A DNA stretch of 64,000 bases from Octopus vulgaris. Lineage: Eukaryota. The notes under the pieces are model-generated. The model saw only the letters and a list, made by a program, of their open reading frames with translations. It did no database searches and was not told the DNA's origin. Shown in pieces: positions 1,478-21,820 of the stretch; the first letter of the stretch is position 1; each line of letters opens with the position of its first letter. The translations under genes were made by a program, and so were the position numbers. The stretch covers positions 682,001-746,000 of the forward strand of contig OX597834.1 in NCBI GenBank assembly GCA_951406725.2, written 5' to 3'.

Positions 1478-1546
<69 letters not shown>
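1478..1546. repeat. (AAT)n microsatellite
   Basis: Direct reading. Confidence 0.98.
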
Positions 1547-1547
<1 letters not shown>

Positions 1548-1753
1548 CTGCTCATATCCTACGCAAAATACTTTCTATGTAATCTCAAGTTTTAAAATAA
1601 ACATAATTTTCTTATGGTTTTTTAGACATTCACTAGTACAACACTATGTACAAAACCAAATATATGGCACCCTAGGCATAACACCAACATGAACTTCCAG
1701 CTTGTTGTCTCTTGAGGTCTCTGGGTGAGACTTGGAGCTAGCATAAGTCAAAC

Positions 1754-1758
<5 letters not shown>
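1547..1758 (+). mobile_element. R4/Dong-type LINE extreme 3' end
   Basis: TAHILRKILSM* followed by UTR; flanked by (AAT)n on both sides. Confidence 0.7.
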
Positions 1759-1809
<51 letters not shown>

Positions 1810-1810
<1 letters not shown>

Positions 1811-2309
1811 TAATTGTTATCGCCATATTAATATGGCATTCTTATAGATATAAGAATGCCATATTAATATGGCGATAACAATTAATTTCCAGTAAACGCT
1901 GCCGTAATCTCTTTTATAGAGACTTAGTAATTTTAATATTTCTATTATTGAAAACAAGTGGATGTATTCCACTGAAACTAGGTAAATAGAAACCTTCGAA
2001 CAGAGACGTCAGTGGCGACACCTGCGGGGTCTGACTGCGCTACATTGACAAGGGGCAATACCCCGAAACGCGTCTGTAGCTGTCGGACTGGCAGTGTGAA
2101 GCGGCTGACCTCCCTTGTTCGAAGGTTATAATGGATACAGATCGTGTATCAATAGCTATCTTAAGGCGGTGGCCTCTTGGAGCTGACCAGCGGCAGCGAT
2201 TATTCTTATATCTATAAGAATGCCATATTAATATGGCGATAACAATTAATTTCCAGTAAACGCTGCCATAATCTCTTTTATAGAGACTTAGTAATTTTAA
2301 TATTTCTAT
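1810..2309 (+). mobile_element. Non-coding hammerhead-containing element (retrozyme/Penelope pLTR-like), 364-bp unit
   Basis: Direct repeat 1849-1945 = 2213-2309; inverted fragment ~1810-1857; HHR at 2039-2080; inserted in (AAT)n; homologue at 20675-21242. Confidence 0.85.
2039..2080 (+). ncRNA. Type I hammerhead ribozyme, U3:A8 core variant
   Basis: GCTACA-TTGACAA-GGGG caata CCCC-GAAA-CGCG-TC-TGTAGC: helix I, core, helix II, GAAA, palindromic helix III, GUC cleavage triplet. Confidence 0.9.
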
Positions 2310-2310
2310 A

Positions 2311-2457
<147 letters not shown>

Positions 2458-3612
2458 GTCCTGAATGAGATGAGTAAAACCGTGGAAACTAAGAAATTTC
2501 GCGAATATTTTTTCAGCAGAACCATTTTACGAACCTTTTTCATTTAACAACGTTTCCCCTCTGACATCGACTAAAACGGAAGATTCTCAGTAACAAGCTT
2601 GTCAAGTCTCTCGTCTCCTCAGTGTTATGATGTATGTTTTCTACTAAAATGGACGCCTTTATTCTATGCAGATTTGCCAATTACTAATTTGTGTTTCAAA
2701 CCACATTCTTGTCAGGACTTAAGATACCAATCCAACTTAGATTGAACTCCAGTTTGGCCACTTGCGGCCATTTTGATGTCGATACGTGAAAAGATATTAC
2801 AAAAGTAGGAAGGCAATTATTTCAACCATGCACAAGTACAGCGTTAAGTTTAAAGTTTCTCAACAACAGATGTATCTGGAATGTTAAAGCCCTTTCATTC
2901 TCATCAAAAAAAGAAATCCAGAATAATAATCATTAGAGACTAATTAGGAATATTTTGCGTAAGCCTTGTCATGTTTGATTCTCAGAATATTTCAAGAGAA
3001 ACAAAAAAAAATGTTCCATTGATGTGAAAATTTCATTTTTGTGAAATATAAGTGAAAACTGAGACATCTAACCTCGAATACACGTCTGTTTTATTGTGTA
3101 GAGATTAGATAAAATTACTGCAAGAATCCGTCATATATCTAAAGATCTGCTAGAGCTATACATACATGCATTCATCCATGTATGTGAGTACGGACGCATA
3201 CACAGAAATATACACGTGCAGCCACCCCACCCCCACACATATATAATGCAATACTATTGTTCCAAACGAACAAGTGTCTGATACGAAAAGATAAAGAAAA
3301 GATCAAATTAGAACGTAGTCTTGTTATATGTAAACACACGCATGTATATATATGTACGTATATATATATATGTGTGTGTGTATGTATATCTGCATATATG
3401 TATGTGCGTGTATGTATGTATATATATATATTAGATAGATAGATAAATAGATGGAGAGATAAACATATAGCGGTAGATATGCCTGTACGTACGTATCTAT
3501 GCAAGCATGTGTGGATATATATGTAAGCATATGTATATATATATATATATATGCACACACACACACACACATATACATATATGCACACACACACACATAG
3601 AGACAGAGAGAA

Positions 3613-3657
<45 letters not shown>

Positions 3658-3857
3658 TGGGAATGAGGGAGTATCTTCATACATAAGAAAGATGACGTGT
3701 AGTTAAAAGTACTTCCCATCTGTATGACATTTTACAGATCGATTTCTAACGCTAAGACATATATATTTAATGTAAACAGAATAATTCCAATATTCAATTA
3801 GACGGTAAAATCAGTGATATCACACATACTCCACCACACACACACACAAAAACGTAC

Positions 3858-3908
<51 letters not shown>

Positions 3909-5024
3909 GTGAGAGAGAGAGAGGGATGGAGGGGGAAGACAGATACCCATATATCGTCAATATCGCTCAGTTGTACACAATATAATTCCATAGAAATAGA
4001 ATGGTAACTTCCTGTGTAATATTTCTGAATATATTGATACAGACTGCCACATTTTGAAATATTTAACGAAAATACTGAACAGCCAAGTCTACACCAAATA
4101 AGCAGAGCTTCTAAATAAATCCTACTGGAAAAAGTAGCTGAATTTCCTCGTAATTATCTGCTTCGTTATTCGTAGATAAGGACGGGTACATTGGACTAAT
4201 GCTAGTTCTTGATATACTTTACGAGACGATGATAAACATTTTTTATCATAGATTTGCTCAGTTAGTGCCGTCCTGGAATTAAACAAGGTGATGGTATAAA
4301 TAGCAGCAGAGGCAACCAGTCATTTCCCTCGATAGAAACAGCAGCTAAATATCCTAAAAGTAAAACCTTTCATTTTATACGGGGGAAGAACCTCCAGCCT
4401 GCCTTTTATGCTCTCGGGAAAACCTGGGTCAATATGTCCTTTTAAAATAAGTTAGAATGTGATTTAAGCGAGATTTAGTTGCTGTTTCTATCATCTCAAG
4501 GATATTTCTTGGACTCGTGTGCTATTGTAGACTTTTAAGTGCCATCGAAACAACATGAACGCAGACTTGGCTACGTGATTAAGATGTTCGTTTCACACAT
4601 GTTGTTTCGGGTTCAATCCCACTGTAGCCTGAATACATTTCTTCCATTCAAGATATGTTGATGTACTTTCAAAGATGGAATCGATATGCAAGTTCACAGA
4701 CGAGACTTCGTTCTCCGCCGGGTCTTCCATTCTATTGCAAGCGTTTAAGTCAAATGTTTGGAAACAAGCTATCATCTGTTCTTCTTTTAATGAATCTTGG
4801 ATACTCAAGTAAACGTGACAGACGCTGCCTTTCTACGTCACTCTCCTCTTTGCCTACACCCCACCTTGACTCCCTCTCTCTTTCCTCCTACCATCACCTT
4901 CTTTCTCTCCTATCATTTCTTGTTCGTGTATGAAGGCCATGCATTCATTAGCAGTTGCAGCCAGTTTTTCTCATTTATAAGATTTGAAACTGCAGTGCCT
5001 CTTAAATTTCTCTCCTGTTAACTT

Positions 5025-5060
5025 TTTCCTGAAGAAGGACTCTTGTCCAAAACGTTGGAT
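5025..5060 (+). ncRNA. Degenerate hammerhead-like motif, probably in a Penelope 3' remnant (~4640-5140)
   Basis: CTGAAGA-A-GGAC tctt GTCC-AAAA(for GAAA)-CG-TT-GGA, preceded by a CT-rich tract. Confidence 0.45.
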
Positions 5061-5900
5061 TTTCCACTTCCCACAAGGTCACTGAACTTTTCGCTGCTTT
5101 TTCTAAATAATACGAGTCTTGCAGACGTAGACGTATTCCAACGTCTTGGGAGTCTCCTTGATCCTAACTAATACTGGTGTTACATTTGTTAAATTGTTAA
5201 ATTTTCGAGAAACATCCATTATTTCAAATTGATTGTTTGTTACTTTCTCTCTCCAAAGAAAAGAATCATGTTTTAGAGGCGGAAGTCGAGTGTTCCTCGT
5301 TTCTAGTACATGTATGAAACCTGCCATATCGGAATAATTAGAGAGCATGGGATTGTTTGGTGTATTCTATGGTCTTTGGAAAAAAACTGATACTATTGAC
5401 TGGTTTTAATAATTTTGGCTTGGGAGCATGGTAGGGGTGGTGTATTGGTGGTGGTGGTGGTGGTATAGGATAGGCTGAAATAGTAACAGAAAGGAATTTC
5501 CGTTGGGAAATAAATCTTAATGCCTGCTTGCAAAATATCATTTTTGAGTGATCAAGAACTCACAACAAATATCGATCGTCTGTAGTTTGCTTTTATGCAC
5601 GTGTGCCACTTAAGAGAACAAAGCAAAACAAAAAGACAAAAAAATAACAGCGAAATCACAAAGAGAAAACTAGAATAGAATCTAAAGCAATTTATTGTTG
5701 AAAATCGATAGAAAAATATCTGTTCTCCTTTTATAATTCCTCTTCCCTGGAATATATCTTTATGGGTTGGAGCCTATAACTCCCACCCCCGCTCTATCTC
5801 TCCCCCCACACACTTCTTTCAAGTTCTTTAAGGCTGTTGGTATGTTTTGATATATTTCGTATCTCCCACAAATGATCCGCACCAAGATACTCAAAATCCA

Positions 5901-5921
5901 CCCTAACCCTAACCCTAACCC
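5901..5921. repeat. Short interstitial (CCCTAA)3.5 telomere-type repeat
   Basis: ccctaaccctaaccctaaccc. Confidence 0.85.
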
Positions 5922-6357
5922 TTGCACATTTTTACAGCACATTTAGAAATACTTGACTTCTTTCAATGAAAAACAATTATATAAAACGCAAATACGCTTT
6001 AATGATTAAGCACACGAAATCACGTGCAGCGCCGCCGGAGAAGACGATCGGAAGGCGACGCCGACTTTAGCTATGAAATAATTATTGGAATAATTTCTCT
6101 TGAAATAACAGCCTTCTATCTTTGAACTTGCAGTCAGGTCCAGGCTGTTGGGTTTCTCTCCTGCTTCTTCCTGGTTTCCCCGTTAAAATTAATGAAAGAC
6201 ACGGAAGTCACCAATACAGGTTCCAAATGGTGTTGGATCGATTTCACAAAAGAAACATAAAATTAATAAAAGAACAATTGAAATTTATATTTCCCAATTG
6301 TATTTTCCTTTAACAATCATCTTTAGGTATTCACACACACACACATGCATGTGTGTG

Positions 6358-6434
<77 letters not shown>

Positions 6435-7024
6435 CATGTGCACTTGTATGTAATCAGAGAAATCTGATGTCGACATGCACAAACACGTCCAACGAACCGA
6501 TACAATTCGGTTACAACATGAAACTATTGATACGTTTAATCAATCTTGATCGAAAACCAGAGAAAAGACAAAGATATGATCACAGCGAATATACATACAA
6601 ACATACGAATAACATACATGATTTGTGTGTGTGTGTGTGTGGATATATATGTTCACACACTCTCTCTCCAATACACAAGCACACACATATTGTTTCAAAT
6701 TTTGACACAACGCCAGCAATTTCCAGGGAAGGCGTAAGTCGATAACATCGATCCCACTACTCGATGGGTACTCATTATGGACCCTACTTTCCCTCCTAAC
6801 AAAAAGATAAAGCGAAGAAAACGCTGCACTGAATACGGTTACCAATTTTGTAACACTCTACATATTTCAACTGCCGAGAGAGATTCATGCAGTGTTTATA
6901 TGTTTATATATATATACATATATATATATACATAAACAAACATACACTATATAGTATGGCGTCAGTAACATTCTTGTTTAACAACAATAAAATATAGGGT
7001 AACTCATCGAACTAATGTAAAATT

Positions 7025-7119
7025 GTAACGTTGAAAGAGAGAGAAGAGGCTAAACAATGCAAAATGGACTGTAAGATGTCTTTTTGCATTGTTTAGCCTC
7101 CTATCTCTTTCAACGTTAC
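7025..7119. repeat. Long imperfect inverted repeat (hairpin)
   Basis: gtaacgttgaaagaga..gaggctaaacaatgcaaaa / ttttgcattgtttagcctc..tctctttcaacgttac. Confidence 0.9.
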
Positions 7120-7212
7120 TCATCGGGTACAATGCTTGAAGCAAACTATAACATTTTATTAATGTCAAATTGTTTTTATTATAACTGAATAAGAAAAAAA
7201 AACATTAATGCA

Positions 7213-7248
<36 letters not shown>

Positions 7249-7264
7249 TATATAAATCATTTAA

Positions 7265-7412
7265 AACAATTCAATTCGGTTTCCGTGCTACTTCAAATTC
7301 CGCAGGGTCCTGATAGAACCGAATCATTCGAACATTCAAGAAACCTGAAGGAGATGGGCTCTGTTAGGGGCCTTCAAAATTTGAAGGAACACGGAAACCG
7401 AATGAAACTGTT
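7265..7412 (+). repeat. Long imperfect foldback with G-U pairs
   Basis: attcggtttccgtg/cacggaaaccgaat, cttcaaatt/aatttgaag, cctgataga/tctgttagg. Confidence 0.8.
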
Positions 7413-7743
7413 AAATATTATTTGTAACTGCTACTAAATGTGTTGAGTGCCTTTTCCTTTCGTTTGTCCACTCCCTCGTGTGTGTGTGAGAGTAAATACA
7501 GAGTTGACCGTTGATATCATTTCCTTAAAGACTACACATGTATTTCGCGATTTAAATTACCTGGGTCTCTAAGAGTTGAAGAATAAAAGCGGCATCTTTT
7601 GTGATCAGATGGCAACCAACCACGAAACAAATCTCTAAAATCTCCTTTTACTTCAGAGAAAAGAAAGAATTGATTGACATCGTCTTCACTCTCCACGTGG
7701 TAAAGAGTTTGAAATAAATAATTGTAAATCATTCACATGTCAT

Positions 7744-7802
<59 letters not shown>

Positions 7803-8683
7803 CATGGTCGCAGCTCTGAGCTGAAAAAAATAAAAATATATATATATATATATATAAATACAGAATCGGACAAAAACGCAAAACTTTCAAATAGACGATA
7901 CAAAAAACGGACGGGTCATTCGAAGCCTCTAATCTTCAGTCAAGAACCGGATCATCCTCGCAATTTCGGCGAGGTAAAACTAAGCTACGGGCATTAGATT
8001 TCTTGGAAAAGGATCGAATGTATACGAAACAAGGACAGAAAAAAGGGACGATGTTACACGAATATAGATAAAAAACAAACAAAAAATAATACGAATATAA
8101 ATACAAAAAACAATAATAATAATAACAGGACAAAAACCACAGGCGTCTTTTTACTTTAGACAGTTCAACTTAACTGGCGTATTTCAAAAATAATGCCTTA
8201 CGGCATGTTGTCGATGTTGTCGTGACGCTGGTCAGCAACCGAAAGGCTATAGTTGACCGGCGGTCACGTGAGAAGAGAAGAGAGAGAAAAAAGAGGCAAA
8301 GGAATTAAAGAGAGGGAGAAGAGAGAGAAAAAGAGGGACAAAGGTATTAAGGAGGAGGGAGATGAGAGAGAAAGAAGGAATTAAGGAGGGGGGAGAAAGA
8401 GAGCGTGCCAAGGATTGGCGGGACAAAAGAAAGGCAAAGTAAGAAAGGCAGAGATATGTGAGAGAGTGGGGAAAGAGGAGACCAAAAAGAGGCGAGAAAA
8501 GAGAAAGAGAAAGACAGAGACAAGTGAAGTACAAATTAAGAAAGACAGAGAAACTGTGTGTAGAAGTCGTACAGAGTTTAGTGGAATGCTTACATACAAG
8601 GTGTACGTACGCCGCAATAATATATGATTGATTGATTCTAGTTTCAGCTCACGAGCTCTGGCCATGCTGGGGCACCGCCATAT

Positions 8684-10189
8684 ATGTATAAAAATATATA
8701 TAAAAATACAATATATATATATATAAGGGACGACTTAGATATGCTCAATCACCTACCGAATACTATAAACAAAAGCACCATACTGGTATCCTTCGATGTA
8801 GTCAACCTCTACTCCAATATCCCCCACAACCTAGGACTAGAGGCAATTCAATTCTGGCTAGAGAATCACGCCAACGAACTACCACACCGCATCAAAAACG
8901 AATTTGTGATAGAAGGGGTTAAATTCATCCTGGAAAATAACTTCTTCGCCTTCAATGACAACTTCTACCGACAAAAATCGGAGACTGCGATGGGTACACG
9001 AATGGCCCCCTCCTTTGCCAACCTAGTCATAGGATACCTAGAGATCAGTCTGTATCGTAAGGTTCTAGAAAGATATGGCAGCCCTTTCTCCATCTACATA
9101 GAAAACAACTGGAAGAGATATCTAGATGACTGTTTCATCCTTTGGCATAAAAATATAGAAAAACTCATAGAATTCCAGGAAATTTTAAACGGACTGGACG
9201 TAAACATCCAATTCACGATGGAATATAGCCAGCAACAACTCCCCTTCCTCGATATCCTCATTAAGAAAGCTAATAATATAATAGAAACAGACATATACTA
9301 TAAGCCTACAGACTCTAAGCAATATCTTCCATTCAATTCATGCCACCCCAGACACACCAGGATGAATATCCCCTTCAATCTAGCAAAAAGGATATGCACT
9401 ATAGTCTCTAACGCAAACACCAGAGACACACGACTACAAGAACTAAAAGATACCCTTATCACCAGGAACTATCCACCTTCACTTATTGACAAGTGCATTC
9501 AACGTGCCCTTCAACTTAACATCAAGGAACTGAGACATCCCAAATCAAAGAAAAACTTACAACCAAAAGCCTTACCATACATCTCCACACACAACCCTCT
9601 CAATAACGAAGCCTTCGGCACCATCCTCCACAACATACCCCTCCTAAAAAAAGACCACAGAATGAACACAATCCTCCAAACACACACGATCATAAAAAGC
9701 AAAAGACAGCCTAGATCCATGAAAAGTCTCCTAACACAAGCCCGAATTCACTCTTCAACACAGAAGCCGACAGTAAAAAAATGTGGAAGACCCAATTGTG
9801 GGATATGCGACTATCTAATTGAGGGATCAGAGTTCTCCTTCAAACAGGGACAACGGTTTACAGTGAAAAGCAACTTCACATGTGCTTCGGAGAACCTAAT
9901 ATACTCCCTAACCTGCTCCGGGTGTCAAGAGCAGTACATAGGCCAAACAAAAAATGGTTTGCGTAAACGAATGGCCCTGCACAGATCCCAGATAAAAATT
10001 CCCCAAAACAGAAAAATAGCTTTTAGCCAACACATAGATACTTGCGCCAACAAAAAAACACCAAACTTCAGGATTTTCCCCCTCTACCAATTTAGGGACG
10101 ATACAACCTCGAGACAACGAATAATTAAAGAAAATCTCTTTATTACAAAATACAAGCCACTTCTTAACGGGTCTACGACAAACAATTAA
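8684..10189 (+). CDS. Penelope-like element reverse transcriptase + GIY-YIG endonuclease (5'-truncated; real homology starts ~8723), probably Neptune-type
   Basis: SFDVVNLYSNIP, TAMGTRMAPSFANL, WKRYLDDCF, YKPTDSKQYL..SCHP, Cys linker CGRPNCGIC, NLIYSLTCSGCQEQYIGQT..LRKRMALH..KENLFI..KPLLN. Confidence 0.95.
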   Translation: MYKNIYKNTIYIYIRDDLDMLNHLPNTINKSTILVSFDVVNLYSNIPHNLGLEAIQFWLENHANELPHRIKNEFVIEGVKFILENNFFAFNDNFYRQKSETAMGTRMAPSFANLVIGYLEISLYRKVLERYGSPFSIYIENNWKRYLDDCFILWHKNIEKLIEFQEILNGLDVNIQFTMEYSQQQLPFLDILIKKANNIIETDIYYKPTDSKQYLPFNSCHPRHTRMNIPFNLAKRICTIVSNANTRDTRLQELKDTLITRNYPPSLIDKCIQRALQLNIKELRHPKSKKNLQPKALPYISTHNPLNNEAFGTILHNIPLLKKDHRMNTILQTHTIIKSKRQPRSMKSLLTQARIHSSTQKPTVKKCGRPNCGICDYLIEGSEFSFKQGQRFTVKSNFTCASENLIYSLTCSGCQEQYIGQTKNGLRKRMALHRSQIKIPQNRKIAFSQHIDTCANKKTPNFRIFPLYQFRDDTTSRQRIIKENLFITKYKPLLNGSTTNN

Positions 10190-10289
10190 TATACCTCAAC
10201 TTTAGAATAAAAGAAATATATACACACACAAATATTACACTCCATAGAATCCATTACTAATCAGCCCCATCACAGCTATACTTTCACCC

Positions 10290-10490
10290 ATTCATATTCT
10301 CCCTTCTCTGTTTTTTTCTTCTTCTTCTTCTTCCTCTTCTTCTTCATCATCATCATTATCATCATCATCGTCGTCATCATCATCACCACCATCATCACCA
10401 TCATCTTCTCCTTCTCCTTCTTCTTCTTCTTCTTCTTCATCATCATCATCATCAACATCGTCATCTTCTTCTTCTTCTTCTACTTCTCCA
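10290..10490. repeat. (TTC)n/(TCA)n compound microsatellite
   Basis: Direct reading. Confidence 0.9.
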
Positions 10491-10825
10491 CCTTCCACCC
10501 CTTAACCTTGTCACTAATGTCTTTCAGTATAACGCCTACGCAAATTCCATAAACAATTCCTGAATTGAACTGCGACTACTGTCAGCCACTGACCATTCAA
10601 AATACGACCATCAAGGCATTCCCAGATTTCCCCACCCCCTCTCCACATCAGCTTCCTTATTCTTCACCTACCCTACCAAGAACTCAAAACGACCTCGAAC
10701 ACACAAGTGCAAACAAGGGAGTCAGAGAAAGGCAGAATGCTACTTATATCTGAACACTACTATAGAAATATTCTTTTAAAAAAACTTTTCTTCTAATTTT
10801 TCTAAATTTAATTATTTAATCGTTA

Positions 10826-10863
10826 CAGTTGAAAAGGTCTCAAAATGACCGAAACCGGTACTG
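10826..10863 (+). ncRNA. Minimal type I hammerhead ribozyme (U3:A8) in putative Penelope pseudo-LTR
   Basis: CAG-TTGAAAA-GGTC tcaaaat GACC-GAAA-CCGG-TA-CTG; helix I extends aatcgtta/aaagatt; ~640 nt downstream of the Penelope stop, same strand. Confidence 0.85.
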
Positions 10864-10993
10864 AAAGATTCACTATAAAATTATCTTAGCATTTTCTATT
10901 TTTGACTTGTTTTTTCATATATATATATATATGCACCTACACCTTGTTCACTTATATGTATGTAAACATTCCACCAAACTCTGTACGACTTCT

Positions 10994-11040
<47 letters not shown>

Positions 11041-11045
<5 letters not shown>

Positions 11046-12915
11046 CCTTAAATCCTTAAAAATATTTCAGCCCGAAGGCTGCGGCCATGCTGGGGCACCA
11101 CCGCTGAATGAGCTACACCAATATGTGAATCCACCTCTGATACGTGGTACTTGGTCAACAAGGGAGTTCGATGCCGCTGTCCGCATCTGTGTCTCCTGAC
11201 GTGAGGTAGGTTCATCTGGGCCCCCTGACAAGAAGAGATCCAGTTTAGTTTTAAAGAAACCCACATCCACACCATGCAAGTCTCTCAGGAATTTAGTGAG
11301 CATGTTAAAGAGCTGTTGTCCTCTGAAACCCAAGCTGTTGCAGTATCTGGTCCTGTATTTTGATGGTGATGTTGGAATCTTTGGCACCATGCAGTGGCGC
11401 CCCGTTCTGCGGTTGGGGTAACTTTGAATGCCAAAGTTTGGGACAAGACCCTCCAGGATTTTCCAGATGTATATCACCGCATATCTCTCCCGCCTTCGCT
11501 CTAGGGAGAAGAGTTTTAATGCTTTCAGTCTTCCCTAGTAGCTGATATGTTGCATTGAGACGATCTTCTTTGTGTAGCTTCTTTGAATTGCTTCGAGTTC
11601 TGCTGTTAGTTTTATATTGTGTGGTGACCATAGTTGGGAGCAGTAGTCCAAGTGGCTGAGGACGAAAGTTTTCCACAGGACCATCAGTGTCTCTTTCTCT
11701 CTTGTTCTGAAAGTTCGGAGAATCCATCCAGCTAGCCGTCTGCATTTTATCACCAAATTTGTAATATGCACTTGGAAAGATGCATCATTGCTCATGTCAA
11801 TTCCCAGGTCACGCACTGATTTTGACTCAGAGATTGCAATTCTTCCCGGGCCAGTGTATCCAGTCTGCATGTCGTTTACCTTTGTGTGCCGGAAACGCAG
11901 GGCCTGGAACATACCTGCATTAAACTGCATGTTGTTGTCCTCAGCCCACCTGTATATTGTATCCAACTCCTGTTGCAGAAGTGCAATATTTCCAGGGTTT
12001 TGTATTGCGTGGGAGACTTTTGTGTTATCTGCATAGCTAGCAAGGGTGGCCATCTTAGCAACTGAGGACATGTCTGAAAGGGCCACTATGAACAGCAGTG
12101 GTCCCAAGACAGTACCCTGTGGATCACCACTTGTTATTTGTGTTTCCTTGGAGGTGGCTCCATTGGTCACAACTGCCTGCCTTCTATCTTTTAGGAAGTT
12201 GTGCAGCCACTCTCCAAGTTTTCCGCCTATACCGAGACCACGCAGTTTGTGACAAATCATACCGTGGTCGACTTTATCAAAGGCTTTTGCAAAGTCGAGA
12301 TATATCACATCCACATTTGAGCCATTTAATAGCTGTTTTAACACCCAGTCATAGTGTTGCAGGAGCTGTGTTAGGCAGCTTCTACCGGGTCGAAATCCAT
12401 GCTGGGTGTCAGACAGCAAGTCATTGTCTTCAAAGAATATGATTAGTTTCTTGCGGACTATTCGTTCCATGACTTTGCTGATGTGTGAGGTCAGAGAGGT
12501 AGGCCTATAATTTTTAGCATCTGCTCTGCTTCCTCCCTTATGGATAGGGCATATTACCCCCTCTTTCAATTTGACTGGGAGCTTACCACTTGCAAGAAAG
12601 CTCTGAAAAAGAAGCTGTAGCGGTTTTGCAAGGGCTCGTTTGCACGATTTGAGAAGGATCGCTGGAAATCCATCAGGTCCAGCAGCTGAGTTTGTGTCAA
12701 TCACATCTATGGCGAGTATGATATCATCATCTTCAATGTTGATGTACTCAATTTTTGCCTCTTTGGCCGCAGGAAAAGTGGCAAAGAATTCTTCTGGGTT
12801 GTTTACTTGCCTGTGTCCTAGAGGTGTAGTGAACACACTTTGGAGTTGTTCGTTCAGTATTTCACTTATCCTCGTGGGATTTCCTGTGAGGGAGTCTTCT
12901 TTTTGGAAGAGAGGT

Positions 12916-12917
<2 letters not shown>
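11041..12917 (-). pseudogene. 5'-truncated CR1-group LINE (RT and C-terminus), disabled
   Basis: [50 protein letters not shown] instead of YADD; in-frame TAG at 11535-11537 joins the 475-aa and 136-aa ORFs; structured 3' tail at 11063-11103. Confidence 0.95.
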
Positions 12918-12963
<46 letters not shown>

Positions 12964-12971
12964 TATATCTA

Positions 12972-13042
<71 letters not shown>

Positions 13043-13205
13043 ATATATATATATACATCTATATCTATATCTATCTATCTATCTATCTCTATATATATAT
13101 ACATCTATATCTATATCTATCTATCTATCTCTCTATATATATACATCTATATCTATCTATCTATCTATATATATATATACATCTATATCTATCTATATCT
13201 ATATA
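12918..13205. repeat. (TA)n/(TCTA)n compound microsatellite
   Basis: Direct reading. Confidence 0.97.
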
Positions 13206-13281
13206 ACTTAGAAAGGTTTTTGGCCAGTATTGGCCCAGGCCATGTCTAACTTAATAGCACCACCTGGCGAAGTCTTTCAGT

Positions 13282-16200
13282 TCAGGATTTGGGCACCAAG
13301 GCCCATTCGAGCAGAGAGTTATTGTTTGCGGAGACATATCCGGGTGTGGATGGTTTGTCCGGTACTGTTTGAAGGAATTTGTCCAAAGACTTCTTGAATT
13401 TTGTGTGGTCAGTTTCTTTTTTGACGTGTCCTGGTGTAATGTTGAAGAGAGCGGGTCCAATTGAGGTGAAATAGTTGTACCGTATTGTCGTTATGTGATG
13501 CGATTTAGATTTTTGTTGTGGACGGATGGCACGTGGTCCAAGCCTTGGATGCATTTTGAAGGTGATGCCAACATCATTCGGACAGTGCTGATGGAATATT
13601 TTCCACATCATACAGATAATGTAGCGTTCACGGCGTCGTTGGAGTGAATACAATTTCAGCTTCTCTAGTCTACCCCAGTAGTCAAGGTCTGACATGCCAT
13701 CTATCTTTTTTGTGATTGACCTTTGGGGAGCTTCAATTCTCATAATATTTTGTTTTGTGTAGGGAGACCACAGTGGACAGCAGTATTCAAGGTGGGGTCG
13801 GGCAAAAGTGGAGAAGAGAAGGATAATAGCGTGGGAATCTCTCGACTGGAAGGTTCTGAGAATCCAGGAACACATTCTGCGGGCCATGTCAACTTTGCTG
13901 CTTATATGTGTAGCCCAGCTTATGTTGTTGTCCACTGTTACTCCCAGATCTCTGATGTTGTTGGATGCCATGAGAATTTCTCCAGAAGGAAGAGAGTATG
14001 GGAGTTTCAGAGCGTCCTCCCTTCCAAAGTGGATCAGTTCGAATTTGTCTTCATTTAGCAACATGTTATTCTTTTCCGCCCATTGGACAACAGCTAGTAG
14101 GTCTGACTGAAGGTTTATTCGGTCATCCACGCTATTGATGACCTTCTGGAGCTTGGAATCATCAGCGAAGGTTCTGATGTTGCTGTGTTTGATGGTGTCA
14201 GTAATATCATTTATGTAGATGATGAAGAGAAGTGGGCCCAACACAGTGCCTTGTGGGACACCACTGCTGACTTTGGCTGGGCTGGATTTGACTCCTTCGA
14301 CTACAACATGTTGGGTTCTGTTAGAGAGGAAGCACTTGATCCATTGCAGCAGCTTTCCAGTGACACCAATATTGGACAGCTTTCTCAGAAGGATCTTATG
14401 ATCAACCCTGTCAAAGGCCTTGCTGAAATCAAGGTAGATGACATCAGTGTTGGAACCCTCTCCCAAGGCTCTCAAAATGTCATCAAAATGATGCAGTAGC
14501 TGCGTCAGGCAATCTCTCCCATTACGGAATCCATGCTGGTTGGGGTTCAGCATATTATGACTCTCAAGGAAGTGAGTCATACGCGATCTCAGCACCCTCT
14601 CAAATACCTTGATGATATGAGAGGTGAGTGAGATTGGACGGTAATTCACGGCAAGCGATTTGTTTCCTTTTTTGAAAACTGGGACAACAGACTGGGATAG
14701 AAGGTCTTCTGGTATATATCCAGCATCCAATGAGTTCCGCCACAGATTGGCTAGAGGGGGTGCAAGTTGGTTTTGACACATCTTCAAGACACAAGCAGGG
14801 AACCTATCGGGACCTACTGCTGAATTATGCTTCATTTCCTTTATTGCTGCTAAGACATCAGGAGCGCCAAATGTTATGTCCGATAAAGTGTATTGGGGAG
14901 TAACATCACTGATACAGCCCAGATCAGTCATATCAGGATTGCTGAAAACAGAGCAATATTGTTTCTGCAATATTTCTCCCATGGTTTTGGCATTGTCTTG
15001 AAGAATACCATTTTCATCAATCAGAGGGCCAACAGTAGAACCAGTGACTCTGTGTTTTTTTGCAAATGAAAAGAACACTTTGGGATTGAGTTTGATCTTC
15101 TCAATGGCCCAGGCCTCTTCAGCTCTTCGCTGACTATTGATGATAGACATCATGTTGTTTTGGAGTTTATGTTTTTTAATCTCTAGCGACGAGATGGCAG
15201 TCAGGTTGGTGTGTTGCTGTTGACAGTATTTCAGCATGTTGATCTTTTTGTTGATTCTTTTAATTTTCCTTATGAGAGATTTTCTATTTCTAGGGATTCG
15301 ACACTTAGATTTGTTTGCAGATCTTAATGGGGTGTGTCTTGCACATATGTTCGTGATGGTGTCTACAAGTGACTGCCAGGACTTTTTGATGTTAGTGGGT
15401 GTGTATGTGTGCGTGAAGGACCAATCGACTTGTGCAAGATCATTATTGATCGCTTCCCAGTTTGCATTGTGGAAATCCATAGTGTCAAATGGATGAACAG
15501 GAGGGATGACATTTGTTTTGCATTTTGGCCAGTGAAATCTCAGATCACAGAGAACCATGTCATGGTCGGAGAGTAGGGTTTTCTCCACTGCAATATTGTG
15601 GATAGTATCAGTGTGATTGCTGAAAATTAAGTCTAAGACGTTTTTGTGACATCTCGTTGGTTCGAGTACCAGTTGGGACAAGAAGAAGTCATCCATGAAG
15701 TCAAGAAGCGATTCCACTGCCTCCCTGTCAGGGGTTGAGAGAGAAGAACCTGGCGGCAGACTGTTTGTAGACCAGTCAACCCCAGGAAGGTTGAAATCTC
15801 CCATCATTAAAATGTTGTCAGGTTGACACTGCTGAATGAAACACTTTATGCTGTTGAGGCATTCCTTGAAGCATGGTAGGGGCGTTTGGGGTGGTCTGTA
15901 GAGCCCAACTACTGTTAAGTTGTTGGTTTGACTGAATACAGCGACTGCTTCGCAGTATCCATTCGAAAATATGTTCATGGCTTCTGTTGAGAATGAATCA
16001 TGGACATAAATGGCAGTCCCACCCTTTCTTCTGCCAACACGATCAGCACGAATGGTTTTGAAATTTTTAACTTTCACCTCGGCTTCCAAGTGGAGGTCAC
16101 TAAGATGGGTTTCAGTGAGGACGAAGAAAGGGATGTGGTTTGGATGGGCCTCGACCCAGTCCTCCAGGAATCTTATCTTCCATTTTTGTGTATTGGTGGA

Positions 16201-16404
16201 AGGGCTGATGCCTTGGGCATTAAGCAGAAATGTTGAGGCGAGAGTGGATGGTTTTAATTGTTTTGGTGATTTGTTAATTTGATTGCTTTTTAATGGCATG
16301 TGTAGTGGGGTAATAGTGGTGGATGGCGGTGGGTGATAGCTCGGATGTTTTTTTCCAGTTCTTTTGCTAGATTCATTATATACATCTAGATTCATTATAT
16401 ACAT
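13282..16404 (-). CDS. CR1-group LINE ORF2: AP endonuclease + reverse transcriptase, uninterrupted
   Basis: EN motifs LLNAQG, LTETHL, GGTAIY, YRPP, GDFN, LDLIF, SDH; RT motifs [39 protein letters not shown]; true start codon uncertain. Confidence 0.97.
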
Positions 16405-16559
16405 CTATATCTATATCTATCTATCTATCTATCTACATCTATATCTATATCTATCTATCTATCTATCTATATATATATATACATCTATATCTATATCTAT
16501 CTATCTATCTATATATATATATATATCTATATCTATCTATCTATCTATATATATATATA

Positions 16560-16602
<43 letters not shown>

Positions 16603-16656
16603 ATCTATCTATATTATATCTATCTATCTATCTATATATATATATATATATATATA

Positions 16657-16687
<31 letters not shown>

Positions 16688-16760
16688 TATATATATATAT
16701 ATATATATATATATCTATCTATCCTCTATATATATATATATATATATATCTATCTATCTA

Positions 16761-16794
<34 letters not shown>

Positions 16795-16864
16795 TATATC
16801 TATCTATCTATCTCTCTCTCTCTATATATATATATATACATCTATATCTATCTATCTATCTATC

Positions 16865-16898
<34 letters not shown>

Positions 16899-17014
16899 CA
16901 TCTATATCTATATATATACATATATATCTATATCTATACATCTATATCTATCTATATATATATACATATATATCTATATCTATACATCTATATCTATCTA
17001 TATATATATATATC

Positions 17015-17057
<43 letters not shown>

Positions 17058-17060
17058 CTA

Positions 17061-17097
<37 letters not shown>

Positions 17098-17106
17098 ATC
17101 TATCTA

Positions 17107-17152
<46 letters not shown>

Positions 17153-17210
17153 CACATTAAGAGTGAATATGGATATATATATTTATATATATTTATGTAC
17201 ATATATATAT
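16395..17210. repeat. ~0.8-kb (TA)n/(TCTA)n compound microsatellite
   Basis: Direct reading. Confidence 0.97.
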
Positions 17211-17315
17211 ACCGGAGTAAACACATAAATGTGAAACAAGGTGGAAAAAAGAGTACTCAAATACCAGTGGTAGAGTAATATGCTTTATTTTAAGCAGCAG
17301 AAGATTCAGCAAAAT

Positions 17316-17353
17316 CTGTTACTCTGAGTTTCTCGTTGCCGTTCATCAGACAG
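17316..17353 (-). ncRNA. Type I hammerhead ribozyme (left arm of inverted repeat)
   Basis: RC: CTGT-CTGATGA-ACG gcaa CGA-GAAA-CTCAGAG-TA-ACAG. Confidence 0.75.
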
Positions 17354-17367
17354 TTTTCTAGCAAAAA

Positions 17368-17405
17368 CTGTCTGATGAACGGCAACGAGAAACTCAGAGT
17401 AACAC
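17368..17405 (+). ncRNA. Type I hammerhead ribozyme (right arm of inverted repeat)
   Basis: CTGT-CTGATGA-ACG gcaa CGA-GAAA-CTCAGAG-TA-ACAC. Confidence 0.7.
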
Positions 17406-18533
17406 ATTTTGTTGAATTTTCTGCTGCTTAAAATAAAGTATATATATATAGATAGATACATACATATATTAACACATTAAGAGTGTATATGGATGAATAT
17501 ATATAAGCTCGTAGAGTGAACTTGTCTTGTCCGCCTGATATATAGATCAGTGTGAAGGGTTTAGAGAATAGTTCAATGTCCCTAACTCTTTTACCCTTCC
17601 CCAGATGCCCGACGAAATAGTTTCGCCCACCGAAACACAAATTCGTATAGAGCCGAGTCTAACTTATTAAATAATATATGTAACACCTACCAAATGTGTT
17701 TCGGACCACTTACTTTTGTTAGTTCATTCACTTGTGTATATAAATATTTGTGTGTGTAATTTATCTTTACAGCTGTAGATGTGCATCTCTGTAGATCGTT
17801 TTTCAATACTTAATCACTAGACGTCGTGTGAAAGTGTGAAAAAATTCTCGTTATGTTGGACACTAGTAAACTAACTTCTATGTAGTCTGGTCAGGTCTGA
17901 ACGACTTGACGACATATCTGAGAAATAAATGTGATATTTATGGATGTGTTAATTTATACTAGTTAAATATTTACCGACTACTTTTAATATGGCCGCCTGC
18001 AATATGAGACAGACGAAGTTTGCGTCACGTCCAAGCATTTGTTCTCTTTTTTACGTTTACTTTTTCAAAGTAAATATATGTAATGTCTTATGTCACATTA
18101 AAATTTTAACCACAAAGTTGATGTATGTATGTGTGTGTATGTATATATATGGATGTGGGTATATGTTAATGTGGGGAGTGGAGTGTACGCGTATCTCAAC
18201 AATGGTGATGTGACAATAACTGTGTAAAAACAGATTGCAGCTGTCGAAATATGTGTTATAAACAGCGGCAGACAACATTAAAAATATTATTATTAAATGC
18301 AAATCTTGAATTTTGTTTGTACGCTTCTATGTAAAGTTTCGATAACCCTCATCGATATGTGAATACACACACGCACACTGCACGCGAGCACACACAAATA
18401 CAAACTCCTGTGTATACACATATATTGGTTACGCAACTCCTGTTTCTCTAAAGTTTTCGCAGCAAGCAGACTGCTCAGGCTGCTCAGAATTTCTCTCTCT
18501 TTCCTTCCTGACCACATGCAAACACACACGCAC

Positions 18534-18606
<73 letters not shown>

Positions 18607-18615
18607 GTATATATT

Positions 18616-18664
<49 letters not shown>

Positions 18665-18771
18665 GGGATTCAGTTGAATTAGGTACTTAAGTTGAAGCAC
18701 CAAGTCAGTCCGGTATTATCTGCACAGCCCGAAGTATGGTGAATAAAATCAAAATAAGCAACAGGATAGTG

Positions 18772-18858
18772 ATGCAGTACGACCGTTTCAAGTAGTCCAC
18801 TTAATTTAACAATACAATCATTTGATCGATTTAAATGTAGTGCCGTCTTCAGCTGCAC
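18772..18858 (-). ncRNA. Hammerhead-like motif with long degenerate helix II
   Basis: RC: GTGCAG-CTGAAGA-(~55 nt)-GAAA-CGGTCG-TA-CTGCAT. Confidence 0.6.
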
Positions 18859-19411
18859 AAATAAATAAATGGAATTTTAGCAAGGACATATTAATATAAT
18901 TTTTCCCAAATATTTTAACAGACCAAGTAGATGGAGGAAATTCATGCTGTCGCTTCTGTAGCTAAGAATAGTGACTACACTTGTAAGAATGGCTTGGATC
19001 ATAGGGAGGTTATAGGTTTGTAAGGGATTGTAATTCATTTCAAATTCATTTATCTCTTTATCAACTACTAAATCTCAGACTAGATGACTGTCTGTTTTGA
19101 ATAAAGGACAAGAATTAGTTGACAGCTCCTGGCTTGGTATGATCATAAATATTATCATATGTATCCCTATTCCCCAGGAAGGAAAAGAGACTTTAGGAGT
19201 AGTCAGATGGATATACCTAACAGTCTATAAAAACAGGAATGGTAGGGGTAGACATTATATGGTGTTAACTTCCTGTTCAAAGGGGTAAGACGCTAAGATG
19301 TTAATACAATATTGTTATGTTGTATAAAAATAAAATTTAAGTATTTCAAAAATGATATTATAACCAAAATAAGTAAAAGGTGTGTATATATCAATTCATA
19401 TGCACATGTTT

Positions 19412-19499
19412 GTGCAGCTGAAGATTGCACTGCATTTAAATTGATGTAATGGTTCCATTGTTCAAATAAACGGAGTCGCTTGAAACGGTTGTACTGCAT
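19412..19499 (+). ncRNA. Hammerhead-like motif with long helix II (inverted homologue of 18772-18858)
   Basis: GTGCAG-CTGAAGA-(~57 nt)-GAAA-CGGTTG-TA-CTGCAT. Confidence 0.6.
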
Positions 19500-20237
19500 C
19501 ATATATATGTATATATAGCCTTGTCTAAAGAGACGTCATTTGCATCACGTGGCCATGTTGTCATGAACACCAAAATTGATGCTGTTTGTTATACTGAATT
19601 ATTACTTTGACACTTAACTACTTATTTATGTTAAAGTATGTCTCTATGTGTGAGAGCGAGACAGAGAGGGAGAGGAAGAGAGTGAGGGGGAGAAAGGGAG
19701 AGGAAGAGAGTAATTGAATATAAACTTTGTATAATTTATAACAACAAACACGTCTGATCTATTACATACCTTGTTCAGCGAGAAAGTCTGAAAATATAAC
19801 TATGTTCAATTTGTTTGTGTTCCATGGAAACCACTCAATTTCGATTATTTTTTCCGGAATTTAATTATATAATATATTTAGTTTCTATAATAATTAATTG
19901 CTACTGATAAAGTTTATGATTTAGAATTATGAGTCGAAACGTATCAAGATCTATCTATCTAGCTATCTGTTTGTGTGTCTATCCGGCTTCCGCATTGGCA
20001 GCTATCAGGCTTTCTAGCCATCTATTTCTTTATATTTTTCAGAGTGACAAACTATATCTTTAGTTTTTTCCCCCTTTTACCCTCTGTACCTGTCTCTCAC
20101 TCACTCTCTCTTCTCTCTGTGTGTGTATACACACACACAGAGAGACCCACATATATATATATGTGAAGGTGCCACAAAGAAGGACTGAAGCCGAAACCAT
20201 GTGGTTGGGAAACAAGTTTCTTAGCACACAATCACAA

Positions 20238-20268
<31 letters not shown>

Positions 20269-20463
20269 TCTCCCTCTCATTCTCTCTCTCTCTCTCTCTA
20301 TCTATATATATATAAACTAAAGGAAGACGAAAACAAAACCAAGTCAGGACAAGCTTATCAGATCATTTAATATATTTTACTTAATGTAAAGGTGAATCGA
20401 AGTAAAGTAAATAATGTCATCAGAGTTCTAAACTCTCCGTATTATTCATATATATATATATAT

Positions 20464-20674
20464 ATTTCTTTACTACCCACAAGGGGCTAAACACAGAGGG
20501 GACAAACAAGGACAGACAAAGGGATTACGTCGACTACATCGACCCCAGTGCGTAACTGGTACTTAATTTATCGACCCCGAAAGGATGAAAGGCAAAGTCG
20601 ACCTCGGCGGAATTTGAACTCGGAACGTAACGACAGACGAATTTCGCCCGGCGTGCTAACGTTTCTACCAGCTC
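20464..20674 (-). mobile_element. tRNA-derived SINE family A with Tx1-like tail
   Basis: Reverse complement highly similar to 25793-26023. Confidence 0.9.
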
Positions 20675-21238
20675 TATCGCCATACATATATGGTAATCTT
20701 ATAAATATAAGACTAAAGCTGTCGATGATTAGCTCCAAGAGGCCACCGCCTCAAGCTAGCTATTTGACACACAATCTGCGTCCATTATAAACTTTCGAAC
20801 AGGGGAGGTCAGCCGCTTCATCCTGCTAGTCAGACAGCTGCAGACGCGTTTCAGGGTAGTTGCCCTTTATCAATGCAGCGTAGTCAGACCCAGCAGGTGT
20901 TGCTACTGACTGTCCCTGTTCGAAGAATCTATTTACCTAGTTTCGGTGGAATACATCCACTTGTTTTCAATAATAGAAATATTAAAATTACTAAGTCTCT
21001 CTAAAAGAGATTACGGCAGCGTCACTGGAAATTAATAGTTATCGCCATACTAGTATGGCAATCTTATAAATATAAGACTAAAGCTGTCGATGATTAACTC
21101 CAAGAGGCCACCGCCTCAAGCTAGCTATTTGACACACAATCTACGTCCATTATAAACTTTCGAAAAGCGATAACTATTAATTCCCAGTAACGCTGCCGTA
21201 ATCTCCTTTAGAGGGACTTAGTAATTTTAATATTTTAT

Positions 21239-21242
<4 letters not shown>
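20675..21242 (-). mobile_element. Non-coding hammerhead-containing element, 365-bp unit (same family as 1810-2309)
   Basis: Direct repeat 20675-20798 = 21040-21163; inverted fragment ~21167-21242; HHR at 20837-20879; abuts (TA)n. Confidence 0.85.
20837..20879 (-). ncRNA. Type I hammerhead ribozyme, U3:A8 core variant
   Basis: RC: GCTGCA-TTGATAA-AGGG caacta CCCT-GAAA-CGCG-TC-TGCAGC. Confidence 0.9.
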
Positions 21243-21331
<89 letters not shown>

Positions 21332-21446
21332 AATATATATATATTGAAGTGTGGTGGGCTATCGGCCGAGGTCAGTTGTGAAGGCAGCACTACTTGCCTT
21401 TAAGCAGGCATGATATGCTCTGTTCTCCGATATTATTGACTTCATG

Positions 21447-21820
21447 AAGGCGGTGACCGGGCAGAATCGTTAGCACGCTAGGCAAAATGCTTCGCAGTAT
21501 TTTGTCGGTCTTCACGTTCTGAGTTCAAATTCCGCCGCGGTCGACATTACCTTTCATCTTTTCGGCGTCAATAAATTACGCACCAGCCGAGTTGTAGGGA
21601 CGATGTAATCGACCATCTCGCTCCCGCAAATTTCAGGCCCAGTGAAAGGGTCATTATCGATTTCATTATTATTTTATTTTATTTTATATTTATGATGATA
21701 ATGCAGCGAGCAGGCAGAATCGTTAGCACGTCAGGATAAATGCTGAGGCATTTTGTCCCGCTTTACGTTCTGAGTTGGATTTCATGTTTCATCCTTCCGA
21801 TGTCCTTAAAATAAGTAACA
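21447..21820 (+). mobile_element. Two SINE family A copies (second truncated)
   Basis: aggcggtgaccgggcagaatcgttagcacg..gttctgagttcaaattccgccg; second head at ~21705. Confidence 0.8.

What the first reader, a model, noticed from the sequence alone, without database searches (positions are those of the whole stretch)
10818..10870. Penelope-associated hammerhead shares the U3:A8 core with the non-coding elements
Seen: the HHR downstream of the RT/GIY-YIG ORF has core UUGAAAA and a 4-nt palindromic helix III (CCGG). The 365-nt elements have UUGACAA/UUGAUAA and CGCG. Established: the 3:8 pair is normally C:G, U:A is a tolerated variant, and minimal HHRs with palindromic helix III generally cleave as dimers. 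Inference: this Penelope lineage is a candidate autonomous partner or ancestor of the small elements.
Basis: partly seen in the sequence, partly recalled or inferred. Interest (0 to 1): 0.7.

Follow-up and report, generated by a model that had tools for sequence, protein, structure and literature searches.

The report
Ordinary Penelope hammerhead; shared core convergent
A small self-cutting hammerhead RNA motif really sits at the end of a truncated Penelope-type jumping gene, but the unusual base pair it shares with two small non-coding repeats nearby is a known, recurring variant and does not show that this jumping gene is their parent or carrier.

Summary
Observation confirmed: a type I hammerhead at 10818-10870 (core UUGAAAA, U3:A8, helix III palindrome CCGG) lies 640 nt after the stop of a 5'-truncated Neptune/Nematis-type Penelope ORF. 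The two 364/365-nt elements (non-LTR retrozymes) also have U3:A8, with CGCG. The link drawn from this is weak. U3:A8 in Penelope hammerheads is published (PMC4209133). It occurs in 3 of 25 hammerheads found behind related ORFs and flips between sister families. CCGG is a trait of related Penelope elements (12 of 25, all C3:G8). At variable positions this hammerhead matches the small elements' at 6 and 4 of 24, chance level, and there is no robust similarity elsewhere. The two palindromes cannot form a heterodimer. The small elements do show Penelope-style insertion anatomy (1.3-mer, inverted piece, AT-rich flanks), so some Penelope family probably moves them, a published model. This family is one candidate among several; ancestry is unsupported. 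A predicted U3:A17 pair should make the Penelope ribozyme weak. Not tested: cleavage, family consensus, other Penelope families of this genome.

The parts
10818..10870 (+). Type I hammerhead of the Penelope element: U3:A8 core, 4-bp helix II, CCGG palindrome, A17; predicted cleavage between 10860 and 10861
8726..10189 (+). 5'-truncated Penelope ORF: C-terminal part of RT, CX4CxxC linker, GIY-YIG endonuclease; no stop or frameshift in 487 codons; lacks about 270 N-terminal residues of the ~750-aa relatives
10190..10917 (+). 3' untranslated/pLTR region with a low-complexity tract (10303-10496); ends 57 nt after the cleavage site at a (TA)n run; the last ~170-230 nt are over-represented in public contigs
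1808..2309 (+). Small element 1 (non-LTR retrozyme): 364-nt unit as ~1.3-mer (1838-2309) with an inverted piece (1808-1857), inside (AAT)n; hammerhead position 3 at 2045, cleavage after 2074
20675..21242 (-). Small element 2: 365-nt unit as ~1.35-mer (21167-20675) with an inverted piece (21167-21242); hammerhead position 3 at 20873; 87% identical to element 1; one end at (TA)n, the other against a SINE-like repeat
5029..5056 (+). Degenerate minimal hammerhead with C3:G8 core (one core mismatch), possibly the remnant of another family; shows U3:A8 is not universal in this genome

Best explanation
The motif is the ordinary pLTR hammerhead of a young, multi-copy Neptune/Nematis-type Penelope family. 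Shown: its anatomy, its place behind the ORF, and that relatives carry the same architecture (4-nt palindrome, often CCGG). Inferred: it has no stable helix III alone; two copies in a tandem transcript, or two RNAs, pair through the 6-nt palindrome formed by A15.1, CCGG and U16.1 and then cut after A17. Activity should be low, because U3 can pair with A17 and cover the site, and may need the element's protein. This truncated copy has one hammerhead and an incomplete ORF, so it cannot move itself. The 364/365-nt elements are a separate non-LTR retrozyme family with their own, better-built hammerhead in a highly paired circular monomer. Both families reached U3:A8 by a compensatory swap of the 3:8 pair that recurs among Penelope elements. 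The retrozymes are most likely copied by some Penelope reverse transcriptase, but the core pair does not say which.
For: 25 of 62 related 3' regions carry a hammerhead on the sense strand with positions 3 and 8 left free in the scan: 22 C:G, 3 U:A, none unpaired; null 1 of 1890 shuffles, 0 antisense. L021 (U:A) and L023 (C:G) are sisters at 100/100 with homologous UTRs; U:A needs at least 2 changes, 0 of 200 bootstrap trees give one. CCGG in 12 of 25, all C:G. Variable-position identity to the small elements 6/24 and 4/24, tied 15th of 19 Penelope hammerheads; the two small elements match each other 19/24. No blastn hit between the families; post-cleavage tail reached by 104 and 83 of 300 shuffles. 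Circular monomers fold at z -8.0 and -7.9, the pLTR at +0.5. Homodimer helix III probability 0.92, no heterodimer, P(U3:A17) 0.74. U3-A8 published for Schistosoma Penelope elements, with cores identical to two in this window.
Against: All 3 intact hammerheads of the window are U3:A8 while only 3 of 25 related Penelope ones are, a coincidence of modest odds. The hammerheads of the closest sibling families (57-62% identity) could not be read, so U3:A8 may be a trait of that whole clade. In the 21-row tree the window element's place is unresolved and could join two other U:A elements. An AT-rich stretch before the hammerhead resembles the small elements under one scoring (6 and 4 of 300 shuffles) though not under two others. 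No single contig bridged ORF and hammerhead in other copies. 9 predicted monomer pairs are broken in element 2 against 7 changed and kept. No cleavage was measured.
Confidence: 0.7

Rival explanations
1. This Penelope family is the actual mobiliser in trans (not the ancestor): its protein binds the retrozyme RNA through a structure, nicks AT-rich DNA and starts reverse transcription at internal sites.
For: The family is abundant and young: thousands of contigs in three coded organisms, and dominant contigs within 1-4 differences of this copy over 274-372 nt. Element 1 is also young (1 difference in 96 nt between its repeats). Both lie in AT-rich microsatellites. Small-element anatomy is Penelope-like.
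Against: No shared 3' sequence. About 8% of the window lies within 10 nt of such a run and other repeats abut them too. Several sibling families exist among the closest homologues and diverged relatives show in the same runs. Hammerhead core changes did not affect insertion in the anole element.
Confidence: 0.15
2. Deep common descent: U3:A8 marks the whole clade of sibling Penelope families, and the retrozyme arose long ago from the pLTR of one member, then diverged beyond alignment while gaining a canonical helix I and a rod-like fold.
For: pLTR origin of retrozymes is reported for 24 of 57 Xenopus families (homology to 22 elements, 21 of them Penelope-like). Both motifs share U3:A8, a 4-nt palindrome starting with C, a 4-bp helix II and no extra base after A9.
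Against: These architectural traits are common in unrelated Neptune-type elements, and one (L001) has CGCG with C3:G8. Chance-level identity at variable positions. The 3:8 pair flips over about 0.2 substitutions per site, so it is a poor deep marker.
Confidence: 0.1
3. The small elements are copied by a LINE reverse transcriptase, and Penelope is not involved.
For: Element 2 abuts the start of a SINE-like repeat in the same orientation, with a few shared bases; LINE ORFs lie in the window; the 2020 paper leaves LINEs open.
Against: More-than-unit copies with an inverted piece whose outer end is a 3'-type end match described Penelope insertions; element 1 has no SINE contact or tail.
Confidence: 0.05

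Closest known systems
Hammerheads in pLTRs of Penelope-like elements (Cervera and de la Pena 2014, PMC4209133; parts 1-2 of 4 of the text and supplement passages read)
   Same: Type I motif in the terminal repeat; short helix I; small palindromic helix III as in Drosophila, rotifer, shrimp and mosquito elements; U3-A8 variant (about 1,300 hits against about 2,000 standard ones in Schistosoma mansoni); dimer model with low activity.
   Different: No extra base between A9 and helix II; 4-nt palindrome; A17 complementary to U3; probable cephalopod host, for which my searches found no such report.
Neptune/Nematis-type endonuclease-bearing Penelope-like elements (Craig et al. 2021, PMC8557442; passages read)
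   Same: RT, CX2-5CxxC linker, C-terminal GIY-YIG; 5' truncation; microsatellite flanks; hammerhead near the 3' end.
   Different: Neptune versus Nematis not resolved here; this copy has one pLTR and no partial tandem.
Metazoan non-LTR retrozymes (Cervera and de la Pena 2020, PMC7229834, parts 2-4 of 6 read; Li, Clavereau and Pollet 2026, bioRxiv 10.64898/2026.07.22.740005, parts 1-3 of 5 read)
   Same: Small elements: 364/365-nt unit (mussel 350-390 bp), GC under 50%, type I hammerhead, highly paired circular monomer, co-existence with Penelope elements, proposed Penelope mobilisation or origin.
   Different: U3:A8 core in a canonical-size retrozyme hammerhead; copies are 1.3-mers with one hammerhead and an inverted piece; no homology to the neighbouring pLTR; the preprint sampled no molluscs.
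PAc, Poseidon element of the green anole (Frangieh et al. 2024, PMC11167929; parts 1-2 of 4 read)
   Same: Model for AT-rich targeting, two internal start sites of reverse transcription, protein-assisted hammerhead.
   Different: Different clade; C3:G8 core; its hammerhead overlaps the ORF start.

Membership tests
Type I hammerhead ribozyme | Conserved core with a 3:8 pair, GAAA and UH cleavage site | tested here: met
   U3:A8 variant
Type I hammerhead ribozyme | Helices I and II can form | tested here: met
   pair probabilities 0.80 and 0.97; helix I only 3 contiguous pairs
Type I hammerhead ribozyme | Rfam gathering score | tested here: not met
   HH9 22.9 bits against 52; the models carry a C3:G8 core and a full helix III
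Type I hammerhead ribozyme | Self-cleavage (as dimer) | not testable with these tools
   folding only: homodimer helix III probability 0.92
Penelope-like element, EN+ (Neptune/Nematis type) | RT followed by C-terminal GIY-YIG endonuclease in one frame | tested here: met
Penelope-like element, EN+ (Neptune/Nematis type) | CX2-5CxxC linker before the endonuclease | tested here: met
   CX4CxxC in the window and the close relatives; definition
Penelope-like element, EN+ (Neptune/Nematis type) | Hammerhead in the pLTR near the 3' end | tested here: met
   window and 25 of 62 related 3' regions
Penelope-like element, EN+ (Neptune/Nematis type) | Placement against named reference elements (Neptune versus Nematis) | not tested
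   no named reference sequences were on hand
Autonomous Penelope copy | Full ORF and two pLTRs in this copy | tested here: not met
   about 270 N-terminal residues missing, single hammerhead; longer copies exist (record 17 runs 533 nt further upstream)
Non-LTR retrozyme (small elements) | 150-450-bp non-coding unit with type I hammerhead | tested here: met
Non-LTR retrozyme (small elements) | Stable self-paired circular monomer | tested here: met
   z -8.0 and -7.9 against 40 shuffles each
Non-LTR retrozyme (small elements) | Tandem copies with two or more hammerheads | tested here: inconclusive
   both copies are partial tandems with one hammerhead; no whole genome held
Non-LTR retrozyme (small elements) | Expression as circular RNA | not tested
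pLTR-derived non-autonomous partner of this family | Sequence homology to this family's pLTR or 3' end | tested here: not met

The most novel reading that the evidence does not exclude
The retrozyme copies record Penelope-type integration directly: their four insertion ends fall at +235 and +177 (element 1) and +239 and +146 to +168 (element 2) from the cleavage site, two clusters about 65 nt apart like the two internal start sites behind the Penelope tail. On this reading a sequence-unrelated circular RNA is recognised by structure by a U3:A8-marked Neptune clade, this family being a live carrier, which would give a defined enzyme-template pair for testing how animal retrozymes move.
Probability: 0.15. 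Interest if true: 0.55.

Novelty: new member of a known kind. Interest (0 to 1): 0.22.

Why it matters
As found, it adds a probable cephalopod example to known classes: a Penelope pLTR hammerhead and a non-LTR retrozyme family, both with the published U3:A8 variant. The useful results are cautionary: the 3:8 pair flips between sister Penelope families and is no marker of partnership. The better handle on the open question of who mobilises animal retrozymes is the insertion-end anatomy of the small elements. The natural U3/A17 versus U3/C17 pair also offers a simple test of the trapped-site model in a U3:A8 core.

Tried and rejected
Whole-genome search: no genome held, so no family consensus or genome-wide tabulation. 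Rfam at gathering score: nothing; E-value mode over 1500-21500 gave 129 matches, nearly all microsatellite hairpins. One of 16 alignments beat all 100 shuffles (unit 1 against the antisense ORF); it is gappy, did not repeat with unit 2 (23 of 100) and was rejected. A short motif shared by the Penelope tail and the small-element end looked suggestive by eye but was reached by a third of shuffles. Stricter descriptors missed hammerheads with 2-3-bp helix II; the final count uses. Viral contigs: no relative of the ORF, no match to the small-element hammerhead pattern. The 58-row tree finished only in quick mode and the one-clade tests did not finish. A possible splice acceptor just before the core had no supporting joint among those shown. 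Earlier findings of the scan: none on this genome or sequence. The supplement of PMC7229834 could not be read and bioRxiv supplements are closed; either might list a cephalopod or U3:A8 retrozyme.

Full report
Observation. A descriptor scan of the whole window finds three hammerheads with perfect cores, at 2045 (+), 10829 (+) and 20873 (-), all with U at position 3 and A at position 8 and a 4-nt palindrome in place of helix III: CCGG for the one in question, CGCG for the other two. The same scan on 40 block-shuffled windows gave one hit in all; allowing one core mismatch adds one degenerate C3:G8 motif at 5029. Rfam gives only a sub-threshold Hammerhead_HH9 match at 10815-10879. Position 3 lies 640 nt after the stop at 10189.

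The element. The frame 8642-10189 holds a reverse transcriptase and a GIY-YIG domain. Homology begins at about 8726, and relatives are about 750 aa, so some 270 residues are missing. The CX4CxxC linker places it with Neptune/Nematis-type Penelope elements. The only named member of its closest clade is labelled Argonauta hians, so a cephalopod host is an inference. The copy lies between (TA)n runs and ends 57 nt after the predicted cut. Contigs of four public runs from three coded organisms cover it from ORF to hammerhead, 28 of 30 bins each; summed depth is higher over 10690-10860 than over the ORF in the three DNA-like runs (about twofold in two, up to about tenfold in the third), which suggests many short 3' copies, though such depth is no copy number. 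Dominant contigs differ from this copy by 1-4 bases in 274-372, so the family is young. No contig bridges the low-complexity tract at 10303-10496, so linkage in other copies of this family is indirect.

Linkage and the 3:8 pair in relatives. I fetched 105 loci with related ORFs; 62 had a match reaching the C-terminal region and at least 150 nt downstream. With positions 3 and 8 left free, 25 of 62 carry a sense-strand hammerhead within 900 nt: 22 C:G, 3 U:A, none unpaired; 1 hit in 1890 shuffles and none on the antisense strand. Several of the 25 are near-copies; by my grouping about 17 C:G and 3 U:A families. The palindrome is 4 nt in 19, 6 nt in 3, 2 nt in 3, and is CCGG in 12, all with C:G. 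So the position, the 4-nt palindrome and CCGG are traits of related Penelope elements. U3:A8 is labile: L021 (U:A) and L023 (C:G) have alignable UTRs and are sisters at 100/100, and the label needs at least two changes on a 21-row tree (5 short rows left out); the window element's own place is unresolved there, whereas the quick 58-row tree nests it among CCGG/C:G elements. U3-A8 was described in 2014 for Schistosoma Penelope elements (PMC4209133), and its supplement lists cores identical to those at 10829 and 20873.

The small elements. They are partial tandems of a 364/365-nt unit, 87% identical, each with one hammerhead and an inverted piece at the upstream end. The circular monomers fold far better than shuffles (z about -8; antisense about -7), the Penelope 3' region does not (z +0.5). 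Of 113 predicted pairs 97 are unchanged, 4 compensatory (two in hammerhead helices I and II), 3 changed on one side and 9 broken. This fits metazoan non-LTR retrozymes (PMC7229834). Their hammerheads have the canonical 6-bp helix I and C17.

Are they related to this Penelope? Not detectably. blastn finds nothing between them. Local alignment to the 3' UTR was reached by 2-6 of 100 shuffles on the sense strand, through an AT-rich stretch that loses significance under two of three scorings; the tail after the cleavage site, where a carrier signal would be expected, scores like shuffles and like tails from unrelated hosts. At 24 variable hammerhead positions the Penelope motif matches the small elements at 6 and 4, tied 15th of 19 Penelope hammerheads compared (18 of the 25 relatives used, near-copies and 2-nt types left out). 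The two palindromes are incompatible: co-folding predicts homodimers but no heterodimer. In the anole element, core mutants did not change insertion, and recognition lay downstream of the hammerhead (PMC11167929), so a shared core pair has no known bearing on partnership.

How it works (inferred). Helix III cannot close on a 2-nt loop, so cleavage needs two copies pairing through the palindrome; one related locus (L011) shows the full tandem with a 1655-bp exact repeat that would place two hammerheads in one transcript. With U3 and A17 the site can be covered by a U3:A17 pair (probability 0.74 in a model without tertiary contacts, 0.00 in the small elements), by analogy with the C3-G17 trap (PMC3884650, passages). 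A weak, dimer- or protein-dependent ribozyme is predicted, as reported for other Penelope hammerheads.

What does point to Penelope. The small elements' anatomy matches described Penelope insertions: more-than-unit length, an inverted adjacent piece, AT-rich flanks. Their ends fall at +235/+177 and +239/+146-168 from the cut. With two copies, a post hoc pattern and one uncertain end, this is a lead only. Penelope mobilisation or origin of retrozymes is in print (PMC7229834; bioRxiv 10.64898/2026.07.22.740005). Searches for a cephalopod case and for U3:A8 retrozymes found none; unread supplements may hold one. PMC5680766 and PMC7761336 were seen as passages only. The label SINE-like for the neighbouring short repeats is recalled, not tested.

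Verdict. Real motif, ordinary class. The shared core is most likely convergent (0.7); this family as the carrier 0.15; deep common descent 0.1; LINE carrier 0.05. New member of a known kind, interest 0.22.

Noticed in passing
window 1808-2309 and 20675-21242: The four insertion ends of the two retrozyme copies fall in two clusters (about +170 and +237 from the cleavage site), one of each per copy; the inverted piece of element 2 spans almost exactly that interval. One end is uncertain (+146 to +168).
   Followed up: partly
window 8555-8598 and 10957-11000: A 44-bp inverted repeat (2 mismatches) brackets the Penelope copy; contig depth near 8575 is far below the family's, so it seems to be a different low-copy repeat, not the Penelope tail.
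   Followed up: partly
window 10690-10860: The hammerhead-bearing end has higher summed contig depth than the ORF, about tenfold in coded organism C; the family may have its own short non-autonomous or solo-pLTR derivative.
   Followed up: no
L011 71-1372 and 3770-5071; L005 1563-2870; also L001, L009, L010, L021, L023: Related Neptune-type elements carry a separate upstream frame (about 430 aa where whole, basic N-terminus) starting shortly after the hammerhead, ahead of the RT-endonuclease frame; endonuclease-bearing Penelope elements are usually described with a single ORF.
   Followed up: partly
window 5029-5056: Degenerate C3:G8 minimal hammerhead after a pyrimidine-rich stretch, possibly the remnant of another Penelope family; no ORF homology found near it.
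   Followed up: partly
window 10790-10828: The AT-rich stretch before the core ends in a splice-acceptor-like sequence at the helix I/core junction; an intron end overlaps helix I in Drosophila Penelope. No supporting joint was seen.
   Followed up: no
window 8982: This copy has a private Gly-to-Glu change in a nearly invariant RT motif; over 96% of contig depth in all four runs has the conserved base.
   Followed up: partly
window 10867-10868: Two-base subfamily variant in distal helix I, majority in two of three coded organisms.
   Followed up: no
window 11535-12962 and 13282-16404 (minus strand): Two LINE-type reading frames (RT; endonuclease plus RT, 1040 aa open) directly downstream of the Penelope copy.
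   Followed up: no
L066-L076, L088 and P0031, P0060, P0062, P0096: Penelope elements sit in bacterial genome bins and are labelled as bacterial proteins, probably animal host DNA carried along in the bins.
   Followed up: no
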